Shown here piece after piece: positions 1 through 21,293 of a DNA stretch of 64,000 nucleotides. The notes beneath the pieces were generated by a model. The model ran no database searches and was not told the DNA's origin. It was given only the letters and a program-made list of their open reading frames with translations. Positions within the stretch are counted from its first letter, which is position 1. Every line of letters begins with the position of its first letter. The translations under genes and the position numbers were made by a program. The DNA is from Felis catus (taxonomy: Eukaryota). The stretch covers positions 12,586,001-12,650,000 of the forward strand of contig NC_058382.1 in NCBI RefSeq assembly GCF_018350175.1, read 5' to 3'.

Positions 1-259
1 AGGGAGTGGGGTAGTACTGGCAAAATGATTCAGGGGCCGGTTCGGGCCAGTGTACAAACCAACACACGCGTTCTTTGGGGAAGTGGAGCATCAGGAAAGA
101 GTGGAACCAGGACAAGGGGCCAGGCGTGGCAGTAGTTTGAGGGGCGTGACACGTAAAAGCGCGGTTAGTTGTGTGGATTGGTTTACAAGAGCAGCAGCGA
201 TGGGGCCAGGCTGGGACTGTGCTCTGATGACCTGGTCCTGCGCCCTGTCCCTCTGGCAG

Positions 260-388
260 ACCCGGGTGCGGTGGTAGAGGCTCAGACGTCGGTGCCCTAC
301 GCCATTGTGGGCGGCATCCTGGCGCTACTGGTGTTTCTGATCATATGTGTGCTGGTGGGCATGGTCTGGTGCTCTGTACGGCAGAAGG
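260..388 (+). CDS. CADM4: CADM4 penultimate coding exon (transmembrane segment)
   Basis: cag| at 257-259, |gtgagt at 389; encodes DPGAVVEAQTSVPYAIVGGILALLVFLIICVLVGMVWCSVRQK, the SynCAM4/Necl-4 TM region. Confidence 0.95.
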
Positions 389-931
389 GTGAGTGGGGGC
401 GGGGACTGAATTCTGCAGGGGGTGTGGTTGGTTGTGGGATTCGGGAAGGGCGGGGCCCTAGAGCCCGGGTTGCAAAGCGGGAGGGCGTACAGCCCAGAGG
501 ATAAGAGGGCGGAACCTAGAGCCGGGATTCGAAACCTGGCGGGACCTGAGGCCAAGATTCCGGGCTGACTTTTCGGCCTTGACTCTGAAAGGGGTGAAAC
601 ACTGAAGGTGAAATTAAGGCCAAGAGTTTGAATAAAACAATTCATCTCCCTAAATTGTTGGATTCGTTGGGAGCAGAGTAAGGGGACACCACCAGGAGAA
701 CAGATAAGGGTTGGTCTTTCTTTGAACTTTCGGAGTCTTCCTAATTCTGCTTTTACCTCTTTCTCTGCCCCTGTTTTGCAATCCCCTGCACTTGATTCCC
801 TCCCTGAATGTTCCGTTTCTCCCTCTTCCTTCGCCTGGTATGTCTTGTCTGTCTCCCCTTCCCGTATATTTCTGTCCAACTCCTGGGTCCACATATATGT
901 CACCTCTGTCTGGGGGTCTGTCACCCCTCAG

Positions 932-1041
932 GCTCCTATCTGACCCACGAGGCCAGTGGCCTGGATGAGCAGGGAGAAGCAAGAGAAGCCTTTCTCAATG
1001 GCAGCGACGGACACAAGAGGAAAGAAGAATTCTTCATCTGA
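932..1041 (+). CDS. CADM4: CADM4 last coding exon (cytoplasmic tail)
   Basis: cag| at 929-931, phase matches previous exon; GSYLTHEASG...RKEEFFI-stop, with protein 4.1-binding motif and C-terminal PDZ ligand typical of CADMs. Confidence 0.95.
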
Positions 1042-6943: not shown

Positions 6944-7019
6944 ATGACAGAGACCCGTGAGCCAGCTGAGACTGGGGGCTATGCCAGCTTGGAAGAAGAC
7001 GATGAGGACCTCTCTCCAG
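6944..7019 (+). CDS. ZNF428: ZNF428 first coding exon (exon 2; acceptor probably 6814/6815)
   Basis: gccATG Kozak; MTETREPAETGGYASLEEDDEDLSP-G; CAG|gtgagg donor, phase 1 joins exon at 11445. Confidence 0.92.
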
Positions 7020-9048
7020 GTGAGGCAGCCTTAGAGACGGCGGCGTTACCTTGAATATCATCCTGGTTTGGAATTGGGGCTCCACTGAGAAATCTGGAGG
7101 GGGAAGGGCACCTTGTCTTGCTAGGTGTTCTGTTCTGACTGGGACTATGTGCCCTGCTAGTGGAATCCTTGTGGCTGAGACTTCTGGGGGTTGTAGATTG
7201 GCTAGGATTGCTCTTCTTATTAGGGGTTCTAGATCGGCTGTGGTCTCTTTCCTTGCTGGGGGTTCTAGATCGGCTATGGTCTCTCTCCTTGCTGGGGGTT
7301 CTAGATTGGCTGTGACCTCTCTTGCTAGAGGTTCTAGATAGGCTGTGATCTCTCTCCTCTCTGGATTGGCTGCAGTCTCTTTCTTTTCTGAAGGTTCTGA
7401 ATTGGCTGTGATCTCTCTCATTTCTAGGGGTTCTGAGTTGGCTGCGCTCTCTTTCACTGCTGGAAGTTCTGGATCGGCTGTGATCTCTTTCTTTGTGGGA
7501 GGTTCCAGATGGGCTACCACTTCTCTCCTGGCTGAGTGTTCTCGATCGTCTGTGATCTCTCTCCTGGCTGGGGCTTCTTTCCCTTCTGGGCATTCTATAT
7601 TGGTTATAGTTTCCCCCCTTGCTGTGGATTCTAGATTGGCTGTGTCTTCTCATCTGACTGGGAGTTCCTTTCCGGGTACGACTTCGTGCTCTACTGTGAC
7701 TTCTCTTCCAACTGTGACTTCTCACCATACTATGACTTCTTGCCCTTCTGGGCATTCTAGACCAGCTCTCACTTCGGGTCCTGCTGGGGGTGCTAGACGG
7801 GCTCTCACTTCGGGTCCTGCTGGGGGTGCTAGACCGGCTCTGACTCTGGGTCCTGCCGAGGGTGCTAGACCGGCTGTGACTCTGGGTCCTGCCGGGGGTG
7901 CTAGACCGGTTGTGACCCTGGGTCCTGCTGGGTGCAGTATCCTGGTTGTAACTCTTGAGCCTGCTAGATACTTTGCTTGGGCTGTAACTCCATTCCCTGC
8001 CAGGGGTGACCATGTGACTATAACTCTTTACCCTCCTTGATGTTGATGGAGACTGGCTGGAACCTCTCTCCTTGAAGGGAGTTCCAGTGGGGCTGTAACT
8101 CTTTGCCCTACTTGGGGTTGTAACCAGCCCAGAACTCTTCCCCATGCCTGAGGCTCCTGGTGGGCTGTAACTCTTCTCTCTGCTCACACTTCTAAGCTGG
8201 CTCTTATTTCTTTCTCGGTTGTTGTTTCTAGGCCGGCTGCAACTCTTGCCCCCACTCTGTTTTTTCTGGGAAGTAGGAGTTCTCATCCTGTTGGGCACAC
8301 TTGGGGTGGCACCATGAGTTCTCATCCTGCTGGTCGTGCTGGCTCTGCTGGGTGACCTCTTGGAGCTGCGGCTTCCCCTTCTTCTGGGAGTTCTGCCCCG
8401 GCTGTGTGTGCCCCTCCGCTGGTGGAGTCTTACCCCACTGACCTTGCTGGCCTTGGTGTCGGTGCTGGCCTTGCTGGCCCTGGTGTCGGTGCTGGCCTTC
8501 CTCGCCCTGGTGTCGGTGCTGGCCTTGCTGGCCCTGGTGTCGGTGCTGGCCTTGCTGGCCCTGGTGTCGGTGCTGGCCTTCCTCGCCCTGGTGTCGGTGC
8601 TGGCCTTCCTCGCCCTGGTGTCGGTGCTGGCCTTGCTGGCCCTGGTGTCGGTGCTGGCCTTGCTGGCCCTGGTGTCGGTGCTGGCCTTCCTCGCCCTGGT
8701 GTCGGTGCTGGCCTTCCTCGCCCTGGTGTCGGTGCTGGCCTTCCTCGCCCTGGTGTCGGTGCTGGCTTTGCTGGGTGTTCTTGTCCCATTGCGGGCTCGG
8801 GACTTGTTGCTGGACTGTTTAGAAGCAACTGTCTTCGTATTTGCCCACTTGGGAGACCTAGAACTGCTTGGGCTTGTGACCGAGTTAGGGGCTGTTGATG
8901 GCTTGGTGGACACTGAAGCACTGTTGGGCTTTGCCGATTTGGTGGTCTTCAAGGAGGCGGGAGGCTTGGGAGGCACGGGGGACATCGAGGGTCCAGTGGA
9001 TGCCGGAGACGTGCTGGGCTTTGAGGGTCTCGTAGGTGGAGAAGGCAT
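6979..9048 (-). CDS. SRRM5: SRRM5 serine/arginine repetitive matrix protein 5, single coding exon, 689 aa from accATG at 9048 (ORF open to 9165; in-frame ATG also at 9093)
   Basis: S/R-rich ORF MPSPPTRPSK...RGTHSRGRTP...ERSSSSSSKLA-stop; nested antisense in ZNF428 as in human. Confidence 0.88.
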   Translation of the reverse strand: MPSPPTRPSKPSTSPASTGPSMSPVPPKPPASLKTTKSAKPNSASVSTKPSTAPNSVTSPSSSRSPKWANTKTVASKQSSNKSRARNGTRTPSKASTDTRARKASTDTRARKASTDTRARKASTDTRASKASTDTRASKASTDTRARKASTDTRARKASTDTRASKASTDTRASKASTDTRARKASTDTRASKASTDTKASKVSGVRLHQRRGTHSRGRTPRRRGSRSSKRSPSRASTTSRMRTHGATPSVPNRMRTPTSQKKQSGGKSCSRPRNNNRERNKSQLRSVSREKSYSPPGASGMGKSSGLVTTPSRAKSYSPTGTPFKERGSSQSPSTSRRVKSYSHMVTPGREWSYSPSKVSSRLKSYNQDTAPSRTQGHNRSSTPGRTQSHSRSSTLGRTQSQSRSSTPSRTRSESPSSTPSRTRSESWSRMPRRARSHSMVRSHSWKRSHSRARSRTRKGTPSQMRRHSQSRIHSKGGNYNQYRMPRRERSPSQERDHRRSRTLSQERSGSPSGTSHKERDHSRSRTSSSERERSQLRTPRNERDHSQFRTFRKERDCSQSREERDHSLSRTSSKRGHSQSRTPSKERDHSRSRTPSKERDHSRSRTPNKKSNPSQSTTPRSLSHKDSTSRAHSPSQNRTPSKTRCPSPSRFLSGAPIPNQDDIQGNAAVSKAASPGERSSSSSSKLA
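7195..7570 (-). repeat. SRRM5: degenerate 36-bp coding repeat (SRTPSKERDHSR-like units) in SRRM5
   Basis: recurring ctagat(c/t)ggctgtg(a/g)tctct units. Confidence 0.8.
7757..7935 (-). repeat. SRRM5: 36-bp coding repeat (RTQSHSRSSTPG-like, about 5 units) in SRRM5
   Basis: recurring gggtcctgc..ggggtgctagac units. Confidence 0.8.
8443..8774 (-). repeat. SRRM5: 27-bp coding minisatellite, 12 copies (KASTDTRA[R/S])
   Basis: near-perfect gccctggtgtcggtgctggcctt(cctc/gctg) array. Confidence 0.95.
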
Positions 9049-10825
9049 GGTAGGTACAAAAGGGCTTGTGATCCTGAAAGTCACAGTGGACATGAAAGAC
9101 CGGTAGCCGTGGACAACCACCTGACTGCCTCTCACAGGCCAGCTGCATGAAGTCATAGTGGGCATTGAGGCCCCTGGAGGGTGGGTGGTGTGAAGTCAGT
9201 GGTAGGAGGAGAAAGAGGGGTGAAGGCCAGAGGGGTTGCCTCCATGTTTGGCCGCCATTCGGCGAGTATCTTCTGAGGCTGACTGGGGATGCAGCATTGC
9301 TGGGGACATGGAGATGGGTCAGACCCAGGTCCTGCCTTCCCGGAGTCTCCAGGTCACTATCCAGGTGGTCAGGATATGTTGGGGTTTGGAGGGGGGGGCA
9401 GGGGCAGAAGTTCCCAGACAAGAGACACTAACCACCTGAGGAGGCATGGAGGACCTCACAGAGGAGGTGACGTGTGAGCTGGGACCTTAAAGAGGAGCAG
9501 GGGTTTGCTCTTAGAGAAGAAAAGGTCACCAGGTGGGGAAAGAGCAGAGCCAAAGGCCTGGAGCGATGGGGGAGATCAGGGCCTCGGGCCCCCCTTGTTC
9601 ACTCGACCCGCACGTCCTGGGCTGGGCAGTGTTGGGGACCCCAAGATGAGTCAGACCTGCCCTCAAGGGGTTCCCAGTCTGATGGGGGAGACCTGTTGGG
9701 GCCCAGATGGCTACAGCCTCTAGGACAGTCACAAAGGGAGACGCTGGGCCAGCAGGAGCCAGGGTGGAGGGAGCCACCGCCATAGACGACAGAACCTGTT
9801 CAGGGTCCTGAAGGATGAGTAGGAGGTCGCCAGGTGGGCAGAGTGGGGAACAGCCTTCCAGGCAGAGGGACAGCAGGACAGAGGCAGAAACGAGAGAGAG
9901 CTGCAGGGAGGGACATGAGGCCAACATTTATAACCCATTCTTCTAAGCTGGGTGATGCCGGGGACCCAGCAGTGAGTCAGACCTGGCCTGCCCTCCCTCT
10001 GGTCTGGTGGGAAAGGACTTTGTACCGGCACAGCCCTCAGGGCTGGGTGAGGACAGCCAGAGGGCAAAAGAAAGTGACTGGCTGCCTAGGAGACCTGGGA
10101 CAGTCTCACTGAGGAGGGAGGCTTCCTACGGAGTCCTAAAGAATGATGTGGAAAACCTGGCTGGGCCACTCCCAGCAAGAGGGAACAGCACATGTGAAAA
10201 GCCTCAGAAAAGGTTTGACAAATTGAATGAACGCCAGGCACAGAGAAGGTGTCCGGGATGCTCAGGATGCAGCAGTGAACCAAAGTCCCTGCTTTGGGGG
10301 ACAGGCAGTAAACACATGAGTAGATGTCACCTACAGTAAGTGGAGGAGAAGAACAAAGCGGTTAAGAGCGTAGAGGGAAGGATTGCTGTTTAGACAGTGT
10401 GACCAGGGTGAAACTGAGAAGGTGACACTTGAGCAGACCTGGCGAGGGGAGGGAGCAAGCCTTGTCTATCTGTAAAAAAGGTAGCAAAGGCCCTGAGGCA
10501 GGTGTGTGCCTGTAGGGTTGAGGAGCCCCGAAGAGCCCAGTGTGGCTGACTCAGTTCTCACAGGACTCTTCTGGGCTGCTGGAGGAACGTGAGGAAGAGG
10601 GGCCAGGATGGACACAGGGCAAGGCTGTTGCAGTCCTAGGGGATGCTTTTGGCAGACCGGTGCCGCTGTGGTGGGGACTCCCTCCTCCCAGACCCAGGCT
10701 CTGCATGCACTGGTGTCACCCTTTCCTGTATGGCGGCTTCAAATCCTTTTCCTCTTTTAACCTAAACTTGTCCTAGACATGTTCTGCATGCTCATGAAAT
10801 CACAGCAATATATCTGTACTTGCAA

Positions 10826-11444: not shown

Positions 11445-11947
11445 GCCCTGAGCATTCCTCTGACTCTGAATACACTCTCTCAGAGCCAGACTCCGAAGAG
11501 GAAGAAGATGAGGAGGAGGAGGAGGAGGAGGCCACTGACGATCCTGAATATGACCCTGGCTACAAGGTGAAGCAACGCCTGGGGGGGGGCCGGGGGGGCC
11601 CGTCCCGCCGGGCCCCCCGTGCAGCCCAGCCCCCGGGCCCCCCAGNNNNNNNNNNNNNNNNNNNNNNNNNNNNNNNNNNNNNNNNNNNNNNNNNNNNNNN
11701 NNNNNNNNNNNNNNNNNNNNNNNNNNNNNNNNNNNNNNNNNNNNNNNNNNNNNNNNNNNNNNNNNNNNNNNNNNNNNNNNNNNNNNNNNNNNNNNNNNNN
11801 NGGGAGGGTCGACCAGCTGGGAGGGAGGAGGAGGAGGAAGATGAGGAGGAGGAGGGCACCTATCACTGTACGGAGTGTGAGGATTCCTTCGACAACCTCG
11901 GGGAGCTGCACGGGCACTTCATGCTGCATGCCCGGGGCGAGGTGTAG
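11445..11947 (+). CDS. ZNF428: ZNF428 last coding exon (acidic tracts and single C-terminal C2H2 finger); interrupted by N gap
   Basis: cag| 11442-11444; GPEHSSDSEYTLSEPDSEEEEDEEE...YHCTECEDSFDNLGELHGHFMLHARGEV-stop; frame preserved across gap. Confidence 0.92.
11646..11801. other. assembly gap, 156 N
   Basis: run of n. Confidence 1.
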
Positions 11948-12087
11948 GCAGAGCCCCCCACCCAGGGAGCTTGGCTAAAGGGGTGGGGTGGGAGGAGGGG
12001 GCTGAGGAAATTGGGGTGGTCGCAATGGTCATGTGGGACGGGGTACCGCCGATCTGTGTCGTCTTAGCAGTAGATGTGTAAGGCCAG

Positions 12088-12093
12088 AATAAA
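12088..12093 (+). terminator. ZNF428: ZNF428 polyadenylation signal AATAAA
   Basis: AATAAA 140 nt after stop, followed by GT-rich tract. Confidence 0.8.
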
Positions 12094-14999
12094 AGCCAAA
12101 TTCTGTGTGTGTCAGTCCAGCGTGTTTGGTGTGTGTGCGTGCATGCATGTGTGTAAACGCTTGAGTGTGCGAGGCACGGGGCCTGGGGCATTTATCCCTC
12201 CCCCTCCCCCCTCCCCTGGCTCCTCCCTGGGGGAAGCTTAAGATCACTGTTGCCAAGACTATTAACATTTACTAAGGGCTTATGTTCAGGTGGCTTCCGT
12301 ATATTTAACTCATAGACCCGATGACGTACAACACAACGGTTTTGCACTCATGTAATAGAGTCCAGGGTGGGTGTTTCCAGTAGGTGGGCAACCCTTCTCC
12401 ATATAGTGATTTGGGGACCCAGGCCATTCCTTAAGCCTGCTGTCGTCCACATGGTCATGGCTGAGTGGCCGTGGCCTGGGTCCTGCCGGTGGAAGAGGAA
12501 GGTGAGCCTGGAGAGGTACACGTGATCTCGGACAGGCCCCCTGCCTGCAAGTAGCACAGCCTGCTCCTAGTTACGTTCCTTTGCTGAGAAATTCGTCACA
12601 TGACCACAGCTCCCTGCAAGGGAGTCTGGGAAAGGCAGGTCTAGCCAGTGCCCAGAAAGCAGAAAACGGTTTGTGGAGGACAGTCGATGTTCTCTGCCAC
12701 TGCCTGAGAACCTTTACAAAGAGGACTTTAATTATAATCAGAGCTGTGCTTCCCGGGTGCCAAGTGCCAGTCCAAGAGCTTTATATATATTGACTCATAG
12801 AAGTTGTGTATCTAGGAACTTACAAAAATAGAAGCTTAATTATAATTACAGCTGCCATTTCCCCAGCACTTCCAGAGTGCTGCATTTTATTTGCATGAGA
12901 TCATCAGGTCCTTAGAATAACTCTGTGAGGAAGGGATTGTGATCCATTAATTCATTTAAGCAGTATCTTCTGGGTCCCTGCTGTATGCCGAGCATTGGGA
13001 ATTTAGCAGTGAGTGACCTAAAATCCTTGTGCTCCTGGAGCTTACATGGGGCCGAGGCGGGGGGCGGGGGGGTGCAGTGGGCAGGGGCCACTGGTAGAGA
13101 CAGATAGTAATCAAGCTGGAGGGAATGCTGGGTGGTGGTAGATGCCATGGAGAAGAATAAAGCAGAGAAGGGAGAACACTTCCGGAAGGCGGTTGCCATT
13201 TTAAATAGTATAGCCCTCCCCGAGGAGGTGACAGAGACCAGAGAGAGCGAGGGGGCTGTGCACTTGGGTGGGAGGAGGCAGGAGCCTGCCACCTGTCAGG
13301 GCAGAGCTGGAAGGATGAGGGCAGAGGGGAGCAGAGGGCCAGCTCCTTACAGCTCTGTTGAAACCTTGGCTCTCGCTCTGAGAAGGGATGTGCTAATTCA
13401 TAGAAGTTTGGCACCAAAGCTCCTTTGAAAATAGAAGCCTAATTATAATGATAGCTGCCATTTATTGAGCATTTACTGTGTGCCAAGCCCCGTTCTAAGG
13501 CGCTTTACGTGTGTTAACTCATAGAAGCTTGGCAACTAAGAACCTTCAAGAATAGAACCTGAATGACCATAATGGCCATCATTAAATCAGCACTCACGGT
13601 GGACCAGGCCCTGTAAGCGCTTTGTATGGACAATCGCATCGGATCCTTATGAGGTAGGGGCTGTTTTATTTCTTCATTCATTTAACAATGACGTATTGAA
13701 TACCTTCCAGACGCAGGCGCTATTCTGGGAGCTGAGAGTAGAGCAGTAAACATGATGAACAAGAATCCCTGCCTTTGTGGAGGTTCTATTATAGAGAAGA
13801 CAGAGACTTAGATATTTAAGTAAAATATATAAAAAGTATAGAACGTTAGAAAGTAGTAAGTGCTGTGGAGAGAAACAGAGTGGGTGGGGAGGCTTGTGTG
13901 TGTGTGTGCGGCAGTTCCAAAGAGGGTGGTCGTGGAGGCTTCAGGGAAAGGGGGACTTCAGGCAGAGGTGGGGAGTAGGGAAGAGTGGGGCCCCTGCACT
14001 GTCTACAGGAGCAGTGAGTGCAAAGGCTCTGAAGTGGGGCCCTACTTGGGATGTTGGCGGAAGAACACTTAGGGCATGAGACCCGTTGCTGAGGAAGGCA
14101 GGGGAAGACTAGGGGAAGGACAAGGTCAGGGAGAGGCAGAGGGCCGGGCCCTGTCGGCTGTTCTACCAGTTTGGGCTCTGCGTCCCATGTCTGAGTCCTC
14201 GTCGTAGCCCTTAGAGGCACAGGGGCTATTATCGTGACCATTTCACAGCTGCTCCAGCTAGGGCACAGGGAACTTGACTTAGCTGCTACAGGTCGGTCAC
14301 ACGGCTAATAAGCAGAACGCAGCTGTGATTCCAGACAACTGGATGCGGTGCGTACCTTCTTAACCAGGAAGCCACATACCAGCAATGGCAGCCTGGCTCT
14401 CCACAGCCACCGTCTGACTGGCCAGGAGCGTGTTTGGTCTCCATAGAGTTGCTGGGGTCTTCTAATCATGTGGGTTACCAACATTTAAAACTGGGCAGAT
14501 TTCACCTCAAAAGGGAGGTTTTTTGGCTTCCCTTGAAAATCGTGAGATCTCGATCGCTGAGCCCACAATCCCAAGGAGCAGTAGCTTTCTGGAGCTGAGG
14601 AAGGCTTACCTCCTGCTAATGGGCGTTCCCTCCCACGTGCCCATTCCTCAGCATGTGGCATCTGGACCCCTCACACCTTGCCTGCTTCACTGCTTATGGT
14701 ACCCTGCTTGGCCACAAAGAGCGTTTGCATCCTGATGCCTGTTACAGGATCTCATACCAAAGCATCTGTCAAAGCCCACACTTTTCATCCTAGAAGCTCA
14801 GAATCTGGGAACCTGACATTTATCCACTCTTTGAATTGAGACTTTCATAACCATCACAGCTTAACATCAATGAATCTCAGAATCGTCAAGGCAGAAATTC
14901 ACAGCTCGTTAAAACACCACGGATGGATTTTAGTTCTTGGAGCAGCATGCTTAAGCCCTCTTCTGCCCTGAGACAGGGCTTTGTTTGTTTGTTTTTTAA

Positions 15000-15425
15000 A
15001 CCAGACTTTATTTTTTTAATGCAGTTTTAGGTTCATAGCAAAATTGAGGGAAAGATAGAGACATTTCCTGTGTACTTCCTCGCCCCCACACACTCATACC
15101 TTCCCCTGGCATCCACATTCCCCACCACAGTGGTCCGTTTGTTACAACTGATGAGCCTATATTGACACAGCATAATCACTCAATGTGCATAGTTTACACT
15201 GGGAGTCACTCTTGGTGTTTGTTGCACCTTCTGTGGGTTTGGACAAAGCGTAATGACCTGAGTTCATCATTATAATATCATAGACTGTTTTCACTATCCT
15301 AAAATTCCTCTTGTGTTCATCCCCCGACACAATCCTTGGAAACCAATGATTTTTTTTTTTTTTTTTTTTTTTTACTTTCTCCATAGTATTGCCTTTTCCA
15401 GATTGTCATATAGTTGGAATCATAA
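15000..15425 (-). mobile_element. old L1 (L1MA/L1MB-type) 3'-end fragment
   Basis: gttttaggttcatagcaaaattga...tgccttttccagattgtcatatagttggaatcata is typical antisense L1M 3'UTR. Confidence 0.65.
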
Positions 15426-16065
15426 GACAGGGCTTTCTAAGCATAGATGTAGAGAATTACCTGTTCATCAGAAAAAATTCCTAAGGATATGAGAGGACTA
15501 GGAATCAAGAGACATAGTCTGCTGCCAGGGTCGGTGGGGCGGTGGGGTCATTCAGTTCCCCAGGGCCTGGTTGAGCTATGGAAACCAAGCTAGGAATTCC
15601 AAAGAGAGGATTGAACACAGGGGATTGGGTGTGCAGCTGGTTGAAGGCTGAAAGCATGAATGTGGACAGTTGAGGCCCCCAAGATACTCGTGTCTGCACA
15701 AAGCTCCCACCTCTAGGACTGGGCACAGAAAGAGAAGGGACATTACCAGAACCCAACAGGAGTTTGGAGGGACAGGCCATGTGCGGCTGTACCTACACCA
15801 CAAGAGAGGCACGGTACCTTGTGCTGAGGGTGTAGAAATGCACTGGAGCCTGAGCCGCTGCTGTTAGAGGGGTTCCAGCAGCCCAAAGTGAGGGGAGTTC
15901 CTTCCCCCTCTTTCTGTCTACCTTCTTCCCAGACCTCTCTTGGGCAGAACTTGAGGAAGCCAGCTCTGGAGGGAATCTGGGAAATACAGTTGCAGAAAGC
16001 CCAGCATTACAGAGCATCATCGGGAGGGCTGCAGGCCGAGAGACTCTAGTGGGCACAGTCGAGCA

Positions 16066-16282
16066 TTTTTTTTTTTTTCCAACGTTTATTTATTTTTGGG
16101 ACAGAAAGAGACAGAGCATGAACGGGGGAGGGGCAGAGAGCGAGGGAGACACAGAATCAGAAACAGGCTCCAGGCTCTGAGCCATCAGCCCAGAGCCCGA
16201 CACGGGGCTCGAACTCCCGGACCGCGAGATCGTGACCTGGCTGAAGTCGGACGCTTAACCGACTGCGCCACCCAGGCGCCCC
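16066..16282 (-). mobile_element. young felid CAN-SINE (SINEC_Fc)
   Basis: full-length head, (CT)n and A-tail; TSD cagtcgagca at 16056-16065 and 16283-16292. Confidence 0.92.
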
Positions 16283-16770
16283 CAGTCGAGCATTTTTTTT
16301 GAGCCTCTGCAGTGAACATTGTCCTAGGTACTGGGGAAGTGAGGAAGACACACCGCCTGCCCTCAGGAGTTTGGATTCCAGAGTATGGACACAGATAATG
16401 ACATGCACAAGCGGGATAGTCCCAGGTGTTGAAGGGTGCTAGGAAGAAATAAAGCCAGGGTGAGGTTCAATGGTGCTACTTTGGCCAGACAGGTCAAGGA
16501 GGACCTGTCTGAGGAGGTGGCATGTGTAGAGTCCTGAATGATGTAGAGACAGCCTTGTAAAGTTCTGGGTTAGAGCACTCCAGGCAGAGGGAACAGCAAG
16601 TGCAAAGGCCCTGAGGCAGAAGCCAGCCTGTCATGTGTGGCTGGAGTGTAGCAAAGGTAGAGCAGAGAGGGAGTTGAGACTGCTTAGCGGGTGGGGGCCC
16701 CATCATTGTTGGATTTTCTGGGCCTGGGTAAGGTGTCTCTGGATGTTATTTATGGAATCTCTTTGGAGGA

Positions 16771-17000
16771 TTTTTTTTTTTTTAAGTTTTTTTTTTTCAA
16801 CGTTTATTTATTTTTGGGACAGAGAGAGACAGAGCATGAACGGGGGAGGGGCAGAGAGAGAGGGAGACACAGAATCGGAAACAGGCTCCAGGCTCTGAGC
16901 CATCAGCCCAGAGCCTGACGCGGGGCTCGAACTCACGGACCGCGAGATCGTGACCTGGCTGAAGTCGGACGCTCAACCGACTGCGCCACCCAGGCGCCCC
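16771..17000 (-). mobile_element. young felid CAN-SINE (SINEC_Fc)
   Basis: full length; TSD tctttggaggatttt on both sides. Confidence 0.92.
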
Positions 17001-17617
17001 TCTTTGGAGGATTTTAAATGAGGAGGTATATGAATTGACTTACACAGGGGGTGGTCTGTAGTCCACTGGAGGGGGCAGCAGTGGTGGCAGGTGCAGGGGG
17101 AGCAGTTAGGAGAGCAGCTGCAGGAAAGGCCGGTCAGACTCGGGAATCTAGTAGTATACAGTTGACCAATCTGACGGTAGTGGTGTAGGTGGGGGCCGTA
17201 GGAGTCACACTGGCCTGTTTTAAGGTTTTGAGACTCCTATTTGTCACCATCCAAGTGATTGTCTCATGGTTGGGGGGGCGTCTGGGGTTTGAGCTGAAGA
17301 TAAAGATTTGGAAGTCACCAGTGATGCTATTTAAAGTCCTGGGAATCTATGACATCTGGAGAGTGGAGAGAACAGGAAGAACACAGGCAGGGCGGCTGTC
17401 TGTCTCAGGGGAGCATGTGTGATTAGAGGCTTAGGTTTGGACATCTGGTTTGGAAACTTCTGGGCTGTCACCAGGTGCAGAGGAAATATTTGGCTTTGGT
17501 GAAGCCGACATTTTTGGGAAAAGTGATGGCCAACTGACTCCAACCCAGTTTCCCCACAAGTCACCCCAGCAAAGAGATCCAGGCTAGCTAGCCCTGCACG
17601 AATCTTGTACAAACAAA

Positions 17618-17627
17618 TACACACACA

Positions 17628-17658
<31 letters not shown>
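17618..17658. repeat. (CA)n microsatellite
   Basis: direct reading. Confidence 0.9.
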
Positions 17659-17659
<1 letters not shown>

Positions 17660-17744
17660 GAGCCCCCTACTAGAGGTAGTATTTCCCAGGGTGGGAATCC
17701 CGGTTTCCAGGCTCAGAGTAGATTGTATGTCTTATCACTTAGAC

Positions 17745-17860
17745 AAGAGGTCAGCAAGCTTTTATTATAAAGGGCCAGATGGCCCTTTACTATTTTAGGC
17801 TTTGTGGGCCATACGGCCTCTGTTGCCACGACTCAGATCTGCTGTTCTATGCTGCAAACA
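17745..17860. mobile_element. MER58-like DNA transposon fragment
   Basis: ggtcagcaa...aagggccagat...tattttaggctttgtgggccata. Confidence 0.6.
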
Positions 17861-18634
17861 GCCTGTAAGTTACGCTGCCTGTGACGGAGACCAAAAATAA
17901 TGGTGACTTCAACAAGATAGAGGTTTATTTCTCTCTTCCATGGTAGTATGGAAGTGGATCTTCTAGCGCTAGGATGAGGACTCCGTTCTGTGGAGTCAAC
18001 AAGCTTCTGCTGTCTTGTTGCTCTACCATGGTCCTAGGTGGTTGGGTGCCATGTCCACACTCCGGGCGGAAAGGTACAGGAAAGGCGTGTCCCTCTCTGA
18101 AGCTTGAGCACTCTACCCAGGAAAGAACCTGGGTCACAGGGCCACACCCAGCTGCAAGGGACTTTGGGAAATTGTGTTTGTAGCTACCACGTACGTAGCT
18201 AAAAATTGGGGGACAGCTATCAGTCTCTACCGTGTCCCCCACTGTGGGTTTTAAAAACATCCATCAGTTCGAATAGGATCTATAATTATTGCATGCAGGG
18301 CACCGGCCATTGACTCTAAGGGCAGGGCAGGTCACCCAAAGTCCTGACCACATTCAGCAGTGCCCTGGAGGGACACTCCACAGGGTTAGGCCTTTCAAGA
18401 GCTGAAAATAGGATCTTAATGGGAACTCTCCCAATGTTGGCCAAATACAACAGGAAACAGAAGGTATCTCTGTTTGATTCCAAACCAGATTCCCTGCAGG
18501 GCCAGGCCAGCTCTGACCTGAGCTCCCCCCTCCCTGTGCCCTTATATTTTCTGGGAATATCTGCTCAAAGGCCAGAGTTCCTTGTTTAGATATTTCAATA
18601 CAGACCTTTTCTGTTTTTAGATACTATTTGTTAT

Positions 18635-18640
18635 TTTATT
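18635..18640 (-). terminator. ZNF576: candidate ZNF576 polyadenylation signal (AATAAA on minus strand)
   Basis: tttatt on + strand about 710 nt downstream of ZNF576 stop. Confidence 0.45.
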
Positions 18641-19350
18641 CATGTCATCTCACCTACACCCAGAAAAAAATACTCTAAGACCAGAATGGTACATAAAATT
18701 ACTTAAGTGGGCAATAAATTATCAGGGTGTGTGTGTGTGTGTGTGTGTGTGCACCCGAATCCACCCAATACCATGGCTCCTCTGTGAGTGGGAAAGACTG
18801 ATGGGGGGTGGAGTGGGAGGAGATAAGAACTTGATTGCAACCCCTACATGACTCAGAATACAGCTCCCAACTTGGCTGCCCCATCCCCAAAGGCCCACGT
18901 TGCTGCACATCTGGGATCCTTCCAGTGACATTACAGTCCCACAACACCCCGCCTTCCCCTCCCCCATTCAGGCACAAATCTGGGGGAACTTGTTCCTACG
19001 GCCCATGGCATCCATCTGGGAAGAATTAAAGGTGATTACACAATCTGTAGCTAGTTGTGATTTCAAACTATTTAATTGGGAATGAGGGAGATACAACAAT
19101 TTTCCCTTTTGCTTGCTTTTTTTTTTTAAACAAAAGATTTCACTATTGTCTAATTTCACTGTATCCCTGAAGGCCTTTGTGTCCTCCAAAGACTGAAGCT
19201 CTAGATGAGAATCTTCTGGGTCCTATTTATCAGAAGTCCTTTGCCTGTCCCGGGAGGGAAGCAAATCCTTCCAAGGCCCCCATCCTATACCAGAGGTGGG
19301 TTTCAGCAGCCACAGAACCCCCGCTGCCATAGGGAGGGCTTAACCTTCAC

Positions 19351-19778
19351 TCAGAGCTCCCCCCGAGCATGCCGGATGTAGTGTTGATGCAGCCCAGCCT
19401 CCTGGGCAAAGTCCTGACCACACTCAGTGCAGGCGAAGGGGCCAGGAGGGGTGCGGGTCTCATGCGCCTGGCGGTGCCGCCTCAGAGAAGCTGCCTGCCC
19501 AAAGGTCTTGCCACAGTCAGGACAGGGGAAGGTAGGCGGGGCAGCGGCGGGTGCAGCTGGCACGGAGGGCCTGGTGGCTGGACCGTGGCCACGCTGATGG
19601 GCGATCAGGGCCTTGGAGGAGGGGAAGGAGCGGGCACAGGTGAAGCAGATGAAGAGAGCCCCCTGCAGCTTCTGGGCCACGAAGTCCGCTGGGTGCTCCC
19701 GCTTCATGTGACGCTCCTGGAACTTGGAATCGGCGAAGGTGATGAGGCAGCGGGTGCACTGCGGGGCCCCCAGGTGGC
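19351..19778 (-). CDS. ZNF576: ZNF576 last coding exon (four C2H2-type fingers)
   Basis: cag| acceptor; (C)HLGAPQCTRCLITFADSKFQERHMKREH...CTECGQDFAQEAGLHQHYIRHARGEL-stop; total CDS 513 nt = 170 aa. Confidence 0.93.
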
Positions 19779-21208: not shown

Positions 21209-21293
21209 ACACGTCGCCTCCTGGACTGCGGGGACTCCTCTCCTTGGACGAATCCTGCTGCTCCATGGTCTCTTCAGGATGCGGGTCCTCCAT
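21209..21293 (-). CDS. ZNF576: ZNF576 first coding exon
   Basis: actATGg; MEDPHPEETMEQQDSSKERSPRSPGGDV; |gtgagt donor, phase 1 joins 19778. Confidence 0.92.

What the first reader, a model, noticed from the sequence alone, without database searches (positions are those of the whole stretch)
11855..19443. ZNF428 and ZNF576 look like inverted paralogues sharing an unusual terminal finger ending HARGE[V/L]-COOH
Seen: last 30 aa are GTYHCTECEDSFDNLGELHGHFMLHARGEV (ZNF428, 11855-11947) and GPFACTECGQDFAQEAGLHQHYIRHARGEL (ZNF576, 19351-19443). That is 14/30 identical with no gaps, including non-structural positions TE, LHxH and ARGE, and the stop falls at the same place. Both genes also have a non-coding first exon, a short second exon (76 and 85 coding nt) ending in phase 1 near an SPG motif, and one final exon. 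They lie tail-to-tail 7.4 kb apart. Inference: ancient inverted duplication with a retained protein-interaction module. A lone finger in the very acidic ZNF428 is unlikely to bind DNA, so ZNF428 could partner with or compete against ZNF576 for a shared factor, while SRRM5 (same strand as ZNF576) lies antisense to ZNF428. This is my best candidate for an undescribed system here.
Basis: partly seen in the sequence, partly recalled or inferred. Interest (0 to 1): 0.7.

Follow-up and report, generated by a model that had tools for sequence, protein, structure and literature searches.

The report
Ancient zinc-finger docking tail, two genes
Two neighbouring, little-studied genes (ZNF428 and ZNF576) end in the same unusual zinc finger, kept almost unchanged in mammals and reptiles; it likely comes from an old gene duplication and likely grips a shared partner protein rather than DNA, but that partner is not identified.

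Summary
In detail: the fingers, the 14/30 identity, the exon sizes and the tail-to-tail layout are as stated.

Common descent of the finger is well supported. No third HARGE finger was found in this genome. A reptile/bird ZNF428 orthologue bridges the two (19/30 identical to turtle ZNF576), its profile picks out all 19 ZNF576 fingers above 3,108 background fingers, and several turtles carry both genes under consecutive accessions. Whole-gene duplication is less firm: the upstream fingers do not align by score, the tree is unresolved, and the SPG and intron-phase arguments are weak.

The invariant residues lie on one helix face plus a free Glu-Leu/Val end. The DNA-reading positions differ and the finger is acidic, so protein binding is likely. 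The partner is unknown; DCAF12 (C-degron) and ubiquitin (NEMO-like) are testable candidates.

New here: reptile ZNF428 has three fingers, and mammals appear to have remodelled two, one into a histone-chaperone-like acidic motif. No paper describing this was found, though Pfam PF27966 already hits both proteins. The scan's earlier notes held nothing on it.

The parts
11855..11947 (+). ZNF428 terminal C2H2 finger ending HARGEV, plus stop
   Evidence: named from orthologue hits
19351..19443 (-). ZNF576 terminal (4th) C2H2 finger ending HARGEL, plus stop
   Evidence: named from hits; fold
6944..7019 (+). ZNF428 first coding exon (76 coding nt, phase 1)
   Evidence: same N-terminus in orthologues
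11445..11947 (+). ZNF428 last exon, coding part: acidic tract, EYDP motif, (stretch reading N), second acidic tract, terminal finger
11498..11594 (+). Acidic tract followed by D-P-E-Y-D-P; DEF/YxP-like motif at the place where reptiles have finger 1 (approximate limits)
   Evidence: motif in 28 of 28 mammalian hits; motif definition from PMC12062221 passages
12088..12093 (+). AATAAA poly(A) signal candidate for ZNF428
21209..21293 (-). ZNF576 first coding exon (85 coding nt, phase 1)
19351..19778 (-). ZNF576 last exon, coding part with four C2H2 fingers (approximate 5' limit)
6979..9165 (-).

Best explanation
ZNF428 and ZNF576 end in the same rare, acidic zinc finger, conserved across mammals and reptiles, which likely derives from a local duplication older than the mammal-reptile split and likely serves as a docking site for one shared partner protein rather than for DNA. 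Shown: identity of the module, its rarity, its near-invariance, its presence in both genes in turtles, and its acidic, non-canonical DNA-reading positions. Predicted: a classical two-strand, one-helix fold whose helix runs to the Arg, leaving Gly-Glu-Leu/Val free. Inferred: the invariant His(+5), Tyr/Phe(+8), Met/Ile(+9), Ala and Arg form one helix face that, with the free Glu-hydrophobic C-terminus, binds a nuclear partner. ZNF576 would bring that partner to chromatin with its upstream fingers. Mammalian ZNF428, having lost its two upstream C2H2 fingers, would act as a DNA-independent adaptor or decoy for the same partner. My odds: finger homologous 0.9; whole-gene duplication 0.65; protein- rather than DNA-binding 0.75; one shared partner 0.55.
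For: Rarity: 2 of 8 genome-wide HA[RS]GE-x-stop matches follow a C2H2 finger, and they are these two; 2 of 7 for the LHxH[YF][MI]xHA pattern. Conservation: 89 of 95 search hits that contain the finger end ARG[ED][LV] at the C-terminus, and 105 of 111 cluster members. Bridge: the reptile/bird three-finger protein groups with mammalian ZNF428 (100/99) and is 19/30 identical to turtle ZNF576 in the finger. A profile from it scores 19 of 19 ZNF576 and 9 of 9 mammalian ZNF428 fingers above the best of 3,108 background fingers. Old adjacency: consecutive or near-consecutive accessions and equal contig lengths for the two genes in turtles, e.g. CAM2107880/881, CAM5176711/710, XP_065276033/032. Not a DNA reader: net charge -2.2 to -5.0 against a background of +2.3; the basic residue after the second Cys (91% of background) is absent in all 88; positions -1, +1, +2, +3, +6 differ between groups while +5, +8, +9 and the tail are fixed. 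The fixed positions cluster on one side of the predicted helix, the same positions FAAP20 uses to bind ubiquitin (PMC4370504 passages).
Against: No partner identified: no finger-level interaction data found. Plain identity is not exceptional from the ZNF576 side, and a ZNF576-only profile puts 0 of 9 mammalian ZNF428 fingers above the background maximum. The upstream fingers of reptile ZNF428 score no better against ZNF576's than background; only an S[RK]AL helix motif is shared (1 of 3,108 background), noticed after the fact. The best tree needs two changes for the terminal fingers. ZNF576's own -1 and +1 residues are invariant in 48 of 48, as a DNA-reading finger's would be. Damaraland mole-rat ZNF576 ends HARESSECN in all four named isoforms seen and two unnamed records of that cluster, so the tail can be lost. 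The background is rich in related many-finger proteins and is not independent. Turtle adjacency is read from accession numbers, not from DNA.
Confidence: 0.55

Rival explanations
1. The tail is a C-degron read by CRL4-DCAF12: Glu at -2 plus the free carboxylate, exposed mainly when the finger frays, loses zinc or lacks its partner, so both proteins are destroyed when unassembled. This could coexist with the best explanation.
For: E-[LV]-COOH with a fixed stop. DCAF12 binds -EL ends and possibly other -EX ends (PMC8161014 passages); the -2 Glu matters most and recognition depends on assembly state (PMC9929631 passages and title).
Against: DCAF12 needs about 8 residues of tail and shows little preference upstream, while the model leaves 3 residues free. 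It does not explain the invariance of T-E, His+5, +8/+9, A, R, G. Asp at -2 in 2 hits. Neither gene appeared in the supplements I could search, though these were mostly figure files without the screen tables.
Confidence: 0.2
2. The finger binds ubiquitin or a ubiquitin-like protein, like the terminal finger of NEMO.
For: Terminal and acidic, with a hydrophobic pair right after the third zinc ligand (Tyr/Phe, Met/Ile; 6 of 2,891 background) where NEMO has Val414/Met415; the invariant positions match FAAP20's ubiquitin-contact positions. Weak zf_UBZ matches in 2 of 10 members, best E 0.05.
Against: Lacks the Asp and Ala of the FAAP20/Pol-eta class and the Pro-Val of the WRNIP1/RAD18 class; the Pfam match is far below its cut-off; the fixed R-G-E-L/V end is not explained.
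Confidence: 0.12
3. Only the gene end was copied (partial duplication or old gene conversion between neighbours); the rest of the two genes is unrelated.
For: Upstream fingers and N-termini show no significant likeness; mammal versus turtle ZNF428 also aligns by BLAST only at the finger.
Against: The same exon plan and phase, three-finger spacing and the S[RK]AL motif fit whole-gene duplication; that last BLAST result shows upstream signal decays even between orthologues.
Confidence: 0.2
4. The two proteins bind each other or themselves through the finger (homo- or heterodimer).
For: A surface conserved in both paralogues would follow from mutual binding (inference).
Against: Both fingers are strongly acidic. 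ZNF428 keeps the invariant finger in murid and cricetid rodents and in squamates, where no ZNF576 was named among my hits (weak, as absence from a capped search).
Confidence: 0.1
5. Chance or convergence: an ordinary finger whose TGEKP linker decayed to ARGE twice.
For: 14/30 identity is reached by generic fingers from the ZNF576 side; one clade is not shown.
Against: HARGE in 0 of 3,114 background fingers, identical stop position, adjacency, and higher identity in reptiles.
Confidence: 0.05

Closest known systems
Classical C2H2 (Kruppel-type) zinc finger, Pfam PF00096/PF13894
   Same: Ligand spacing, Phe/Leu core and predicted fold.
   Different: No TGEKP linker, acidic, no phosphate-binding basic residue, helix extended to a fixed ARGE[LV] end.
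Pfam PF27966 (seen only as a precomputed label; not in the local Pfam copy)
   Same: Labels all 30 ZNF428 hits, 18 of 22 reptile/bird hits and 9 of 61 ZNF576 hits, so the likeness is already implicit in a database.
   Different: I could not read its name or description; it also labels ZNF428 records that lack the finger, so it is not a model of the finger alone.
Ubiquitin-binding zinc fingers (FAAP20, Pol eta, WRNIP1, RAD18, NEMO)
   Same: Terminal single finger using the same helix positions.
   Different: Class-defining Asp/Ala and Pro-Val residues are absent; only the NEMO-like hydrophobic pair is shared.
CRL4-DCAF12 Glu-Leu C-degrons (MOV10)
   Same: Conserved Glu at -2 and hydrophobic last residue.
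   Different: Here the end is attached to a folded finger with about 3 free residues, and residues upstream are invariant.
Protein-binding C2H2 fingers such as the last fingers of ZNF423/ZNF521 (their binding role is recalled, not read)
   Same: ZNF423/ZNF521 clusters rank near the top by language-model features.
   Different: Shared feature counts are low (127-149 of 256); a lead only, no alignment tested.
DEF/YxP motif of H2A-H2B chaperones (Swc5, Spt16, alpha-synuclein)
   Same: Acidic tract followed by E-Y-x-P in mammalian ZNF428.
   Different: D-P-E-Y-D-P rather than an exact D-E-Y-x-P; histone binding untested; absent in reptile orthologues, which have a finger there.

Membership tests
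Classical C2H2 finger | C-x2-C-x3-F-x5-L-x2-H-x3-H and two-strand, one-helix fold | tested here: met
   model pLDDT 93, helix 16-28
DNA-binding C2H2 array finger | TGEKP-type linker | tested here: not met
   HTGE in 1,554 of 3,114 background fingers; here HARGE-end
DNA-binding C2H2 array finger | Basic residue two after the second Cys and net positive charge | tested here: not met
   absent in 88 of 88; charge -2.2 to -5.0 versus +2.3
DNA-binding C2H2 array finger | Specificity residues (-1, +2, +3, +6) conserved among orthologues | tested here: inconclusive
   changed between mammal and reptile ZNF428, largely fixed in ZNF576
DNA-binding C2H2 array finger | Sequence-specific DNA binding | not testable with these tools
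   needs SELEX or EMSA
UBZ, FAAP20/Pol-eta class | Asp and Ala on the helix at the ubiquitin contact | tested here: not met
   His and Met/Ile at those positions
UBZ, WRNIP1/RAD18 class | Pro-Val in the beta-loop | tested here: not met
   Thr-Glu between the cysteines in 88 of 88
UBZ, NEMO-like group | Hydrophobic residue then Met after the third ligand; ubiquitin binding | tested here: inconclusive
   sequence feature present; binding not tested
DCAF12 C-degron | Glu at -2 with free C-terminus | tested here: met
   87 of 95 finger-bearing hits end ARGEL or ARGEV; Leu at -1 is documented, Val is extrapolated
DCAF12 C-degron | About 8 accessible terminal residues | tested here: not met
   predicted helix runs to the Arg, 3 residues free; would be met only if the finger unfolds
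DCAF12 C-degron | DCAF12-dependent turnover | not testable with these tools
   not in the supplements held; screen tables were not available
Tandem paralogue pair | Reciprocal best match in the genome | tested here: inconclusive
   best from ZNF428, row 19 of 150 from ZNF576; clear with the reptile-based profile
Tandem paralogue pair | Conserved adjacency in an outgroup | tested here: met
   indirect: accession order and contig lengths in turtles and echidna; orientation not seen
Tandem paralogue pair | Sister position in a tree | tested here: inconclusive
   one group in 74% of bootstrap trees, p-AU 0.236, 30 columns
Tandem paralogue pair | Homology beyond the terminal finger | tested here: inconclusive
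   not by score; S[RK]AL motif and exon plan only
DEF/YxP histone H2A-H2B chaperone motif | Acidic tract, aromatic anchor, Pro at +2 | tested here: inconclusive
   near match, invariant in 28 of 28 mammalian hits; binding untested

The most novel reading that the evidence does not exclude
The HARGE finger is an undescribed amniote docking module whose free Glu-Leu/Val end doubles as an assembly-sensing degron. Mammals turned one copy from a three-finger transcription factor into a DNA-blind decoy by rewriting finger 1 into a histone H2A-H2B chaperone motif and finger 2 into a four-cysteine site, so ZNF428 carries ZNF576's cofactor to histones instead of to DNA sites.
Probability: 0.12. Interest if true: 0.72.

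Novelty: new variant of a known kind. Interest (0 to 1): 0.42.

Why it matters
Both genes are in the human genome with almost no functional literature, and ZNF428 is listed as 'DNA binding' in at least one dataset. The comparison points to a 30-residue surface and a free C-terminus that have hardly changed across mammals and reptiles, which gives precise mutations to test. It also warns that C-terminal tags would mask the likely binding end. The reptile-to-mammal change in ZNF428 is a traceable case of zinc fingers being remodelled into other motifs. The impact is moderate: a small two-gene family of a known fold, with the partner still unknown.

Tried and rejected
Heterodimer prediction of the two fingers with zinc gave no verdict (score 0.03, alignments not used) and is no evidence either way. 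The profile search of 1.84 billion representatives was swamped by many-finger proteins, so its 150 hits served only as background. PDB sequence and fold searches gave only generic fingers. The metagenome pattern scan gave 1 match, with no cysteines upstream, so chance. The range outside amniotes is open: the bridging search had only 23 candidates of 157-503 aa and missed even mammalian members, so the lack of fish or amphibian hits means nothing. Full-length mouse ZNF428 folds only at the terminal finger (pLDDT about 90 there, mean 60), so the four-cysteine site is unsupported as a fold. No RNA holder was listed on record and no reads were laid, so first exons and SRRM5 splicing remain open. 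Collinearity of the upstream fingers was tested and not supported by score. The SPG argument was rejected (not conserved in ZNF576). ZNF576 is a bait in the LUMIER raw data of PMC13678222, but the raw signals could not be interpreted and the stored file was cut. HMGB1/2 two-hybrid hits (PMC5922377 passages) and a one-peptide BAF hit (PMC2739719 passage) are not mapped to the finger and may reflect the acidic tract. Earlier scan notes held nothing relevant.
Full report
Observation. The window is mammalian, likely cat family (the top ZNF428 hit is cheetah). The two terminal fingers, their stops, the 14/30 identity and the 7,403-nt tail-to-tail gap are as reported. The first coding exons have 76 and 85 coding nt and end in phase 1. 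Gene names come from the sources' names on the hits. Non-coding first exons were not checked against RNA. Part of ZNF428's last exon reads N, so what I say about that region comes from other species.

Is it more than chance? Yes, but not because of the raw identity. From the ZNF576 side, 10 of 2,891 and 6 of 225 background fingers reach 14/30, and ZNF428 is row 19 of 150 genome matches. From the ZNF428 side none reach it and ZNF576 is the best non-self match of 7. The distinctive part is the helix end: HARGE after the last His occurs in 0 of 3,114 background fingers and LHxH[YF] in 2. Two genome-wide patterns gave 8 and 7 matches, and in each only these two genes have the cysteines upstream. 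A finger split by an intron would be missed. The background comes from the 150 many-finger proteins and from genome loci, and its members are related to each other.

Relatives. The searches returned 30, 61 and 22 proteins (112 distinct). Of these 95 contain the finger and 89 end ARG[ED][LV]; 17 are isoforms or fragments without it. Of 111 further cluster members, 105 end this way. The clearest exception is Damaraland mole-rat ZNF576, which ends HARESSECN. Lizards, snakes, turtles and crocodilians have a three-finger protein (a manakin record shows the last two fingers) whose last finger is intermediate. It groups with mammalian ZNF428 at 100/99 and is 19/30 identical to turtle ZNF576. A profile built from it alone places 19 of 19 distinct ZNF576 and 9 of 9 mammalian ZNF428 fingers above the best background finger; the mammal-only and ZNF576-only profiles do not bridge directly (4 of 19, 0 of 9). 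In several turtles the two genes have consecutive or near accessions and share a contig length, which implies they were already neighbours in the amniote ancestor. Orientation there was not seen. The finger tree leaves the joint clade open: 74% of bootstrap trees, p-AU 0.236.

Whole gene or only the end? Reptile fingers 1 and 2 do not score above background against ZNF576 fingers 2 and 3. They share S[RK]AL at helix positions +1 to +4 (51 of 61 ZNF576 hits; 1 of 3,108 background), which I noticed after the fact. SPG is not conserved in ZNF576, and a shared intron phase has roughly one-in-three odds. I put whole-gene duplication at 0.65 and homology of the finger at 0.9.

Anatomy and mechanism. 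Across the 88 complete terminal fingers (24 of 112 hits dropped for lacking one), T-E, His+5, Tyr/Phe+8, Met/Ile+9, A, R, G, Glu/Asp and Leu/Val are fixed. Positions -1, +1, +2, +3 and +6 differ between groups, the phosphate-binding basic residue (91% of background) is absent, and net charge is -2.2 to -5.0 against +2.3. The model is a classical finger with the helix running to the Arg, and the fixed residues fall at 40-180 degrees on a helical wheel. That a protein binds this face and the free end is inference. ZNF576's invariant -1 and +1 residues leave some room for DNA contact in that protein.

Candidate partners. FAAP20 binds ubiquitin with helix positions that match these, but with Asp and Ala that are absent here; NEMO's Val-Met pair is the nearer likeness (PMC4370504, passages). 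DCAF12 reads Glu-Leu ends (PMC8161014, passages and its one held supplement) but needs about eight residues and cares little about upstream sequence (PMC9929631, passages). It could act only on an unfolded or unpartnered finger and cannot explain the whole patch. I therefore favour an unknown nuclear partner, with the degron as a possible second use.

Mammalian remodelling. Where reptiles have finger 1, the alignment places an invariant DDPEYDPGYK after an acidic tract (28 of 28 mammalian hits), and where they have finger 2 it places a CxxC...CxxC segment (24 of 28). BLAST does not detect this correspondence, so it rests on the multiple alignment. The first resembles the DEF/YxP motif of H2A-H2B chaperones (PMC12062221, passages). 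The second did not fold in prediction.

What is in print. One paper holds both names (search listing only); 54 hold ZNF428 (40 listed), 30 hold ZNF576 (29 listed), 35 hold aliases or SRRM5 (32 listed) and 3 hold ZNF428 with 'paralog'. No listed title or abstract opening concerns paralogy, structure or the tail. The library lacks most subscription papers, and I could not check Ensembl, PANTHER or interaction databases. Pfam PF27966 already labels ZNF428 and 9 of 61 ZNF576 hits. Screen tables that may list these proteins were not in the supplements held. PMC12871134, PMC13742170 and PMC11042367 were searched as passages, PMC13678222 as passages, one section and its supplement, and PMC10567573 and PMC12559739 as supplements only.

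Verdict. A real, apparently undescribed, amniote-wide variant of the C2H2 finger shared by two neighbouring genes, most likely a protein-docking module with a functional free C-terminus. It is a new variant of a known kind. Interest 0.42: well supported as evolution, open as mechanism.

Noticed in passing
window 6979-7019: The end of the antisense Ser/Arg-rich ORF overlaps ZNF428's first coding exon by 41 nt, so both strands appear to code there.
   Followed up: partly
window 6979-9165 (-): The 728-aa ORF has 167 Ser and 112 Arg and a tandem repeat with 12 copies of an AS-x-DT unit; no Pfam match.
   Followed up: no
P0067, P0323, P0326, P0332, P0335, P0336: Damaraland mole-rat ZNF576 has a changed tail (HARESSECN), a natural test of the tail's importance.
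   Followed up: partly
   Followed up: partly
P0082, P0278: Turtle ZNF576 has five fingers, one more than mammals; its first finger is as conserved as the terminal one (17-20 of 24 identical).
   Followed up: no
P0243-P0277: Reptile ZNF428 orthologues carry many unrelated automatic names (ZNF48-like, ZNF629-like, replication initiator 1-like, Cullin-9); their first finger is invariant in 20 of 22 hits.
   Followed up: partly
window 22711-23277 and 24271-25845 (+): Two coding exons with a weak interferon-inducible GTPase match (IRGQ, name recalled) start about 1.4 kb from ZNF576's start codon, head-to-head across a CpG-rich region.
   Followed up: no
window 240-1040 (+): Last exons of a transmembrane protein (CADM4, name recalled) upstream of ZNF428.
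   Followed up: no
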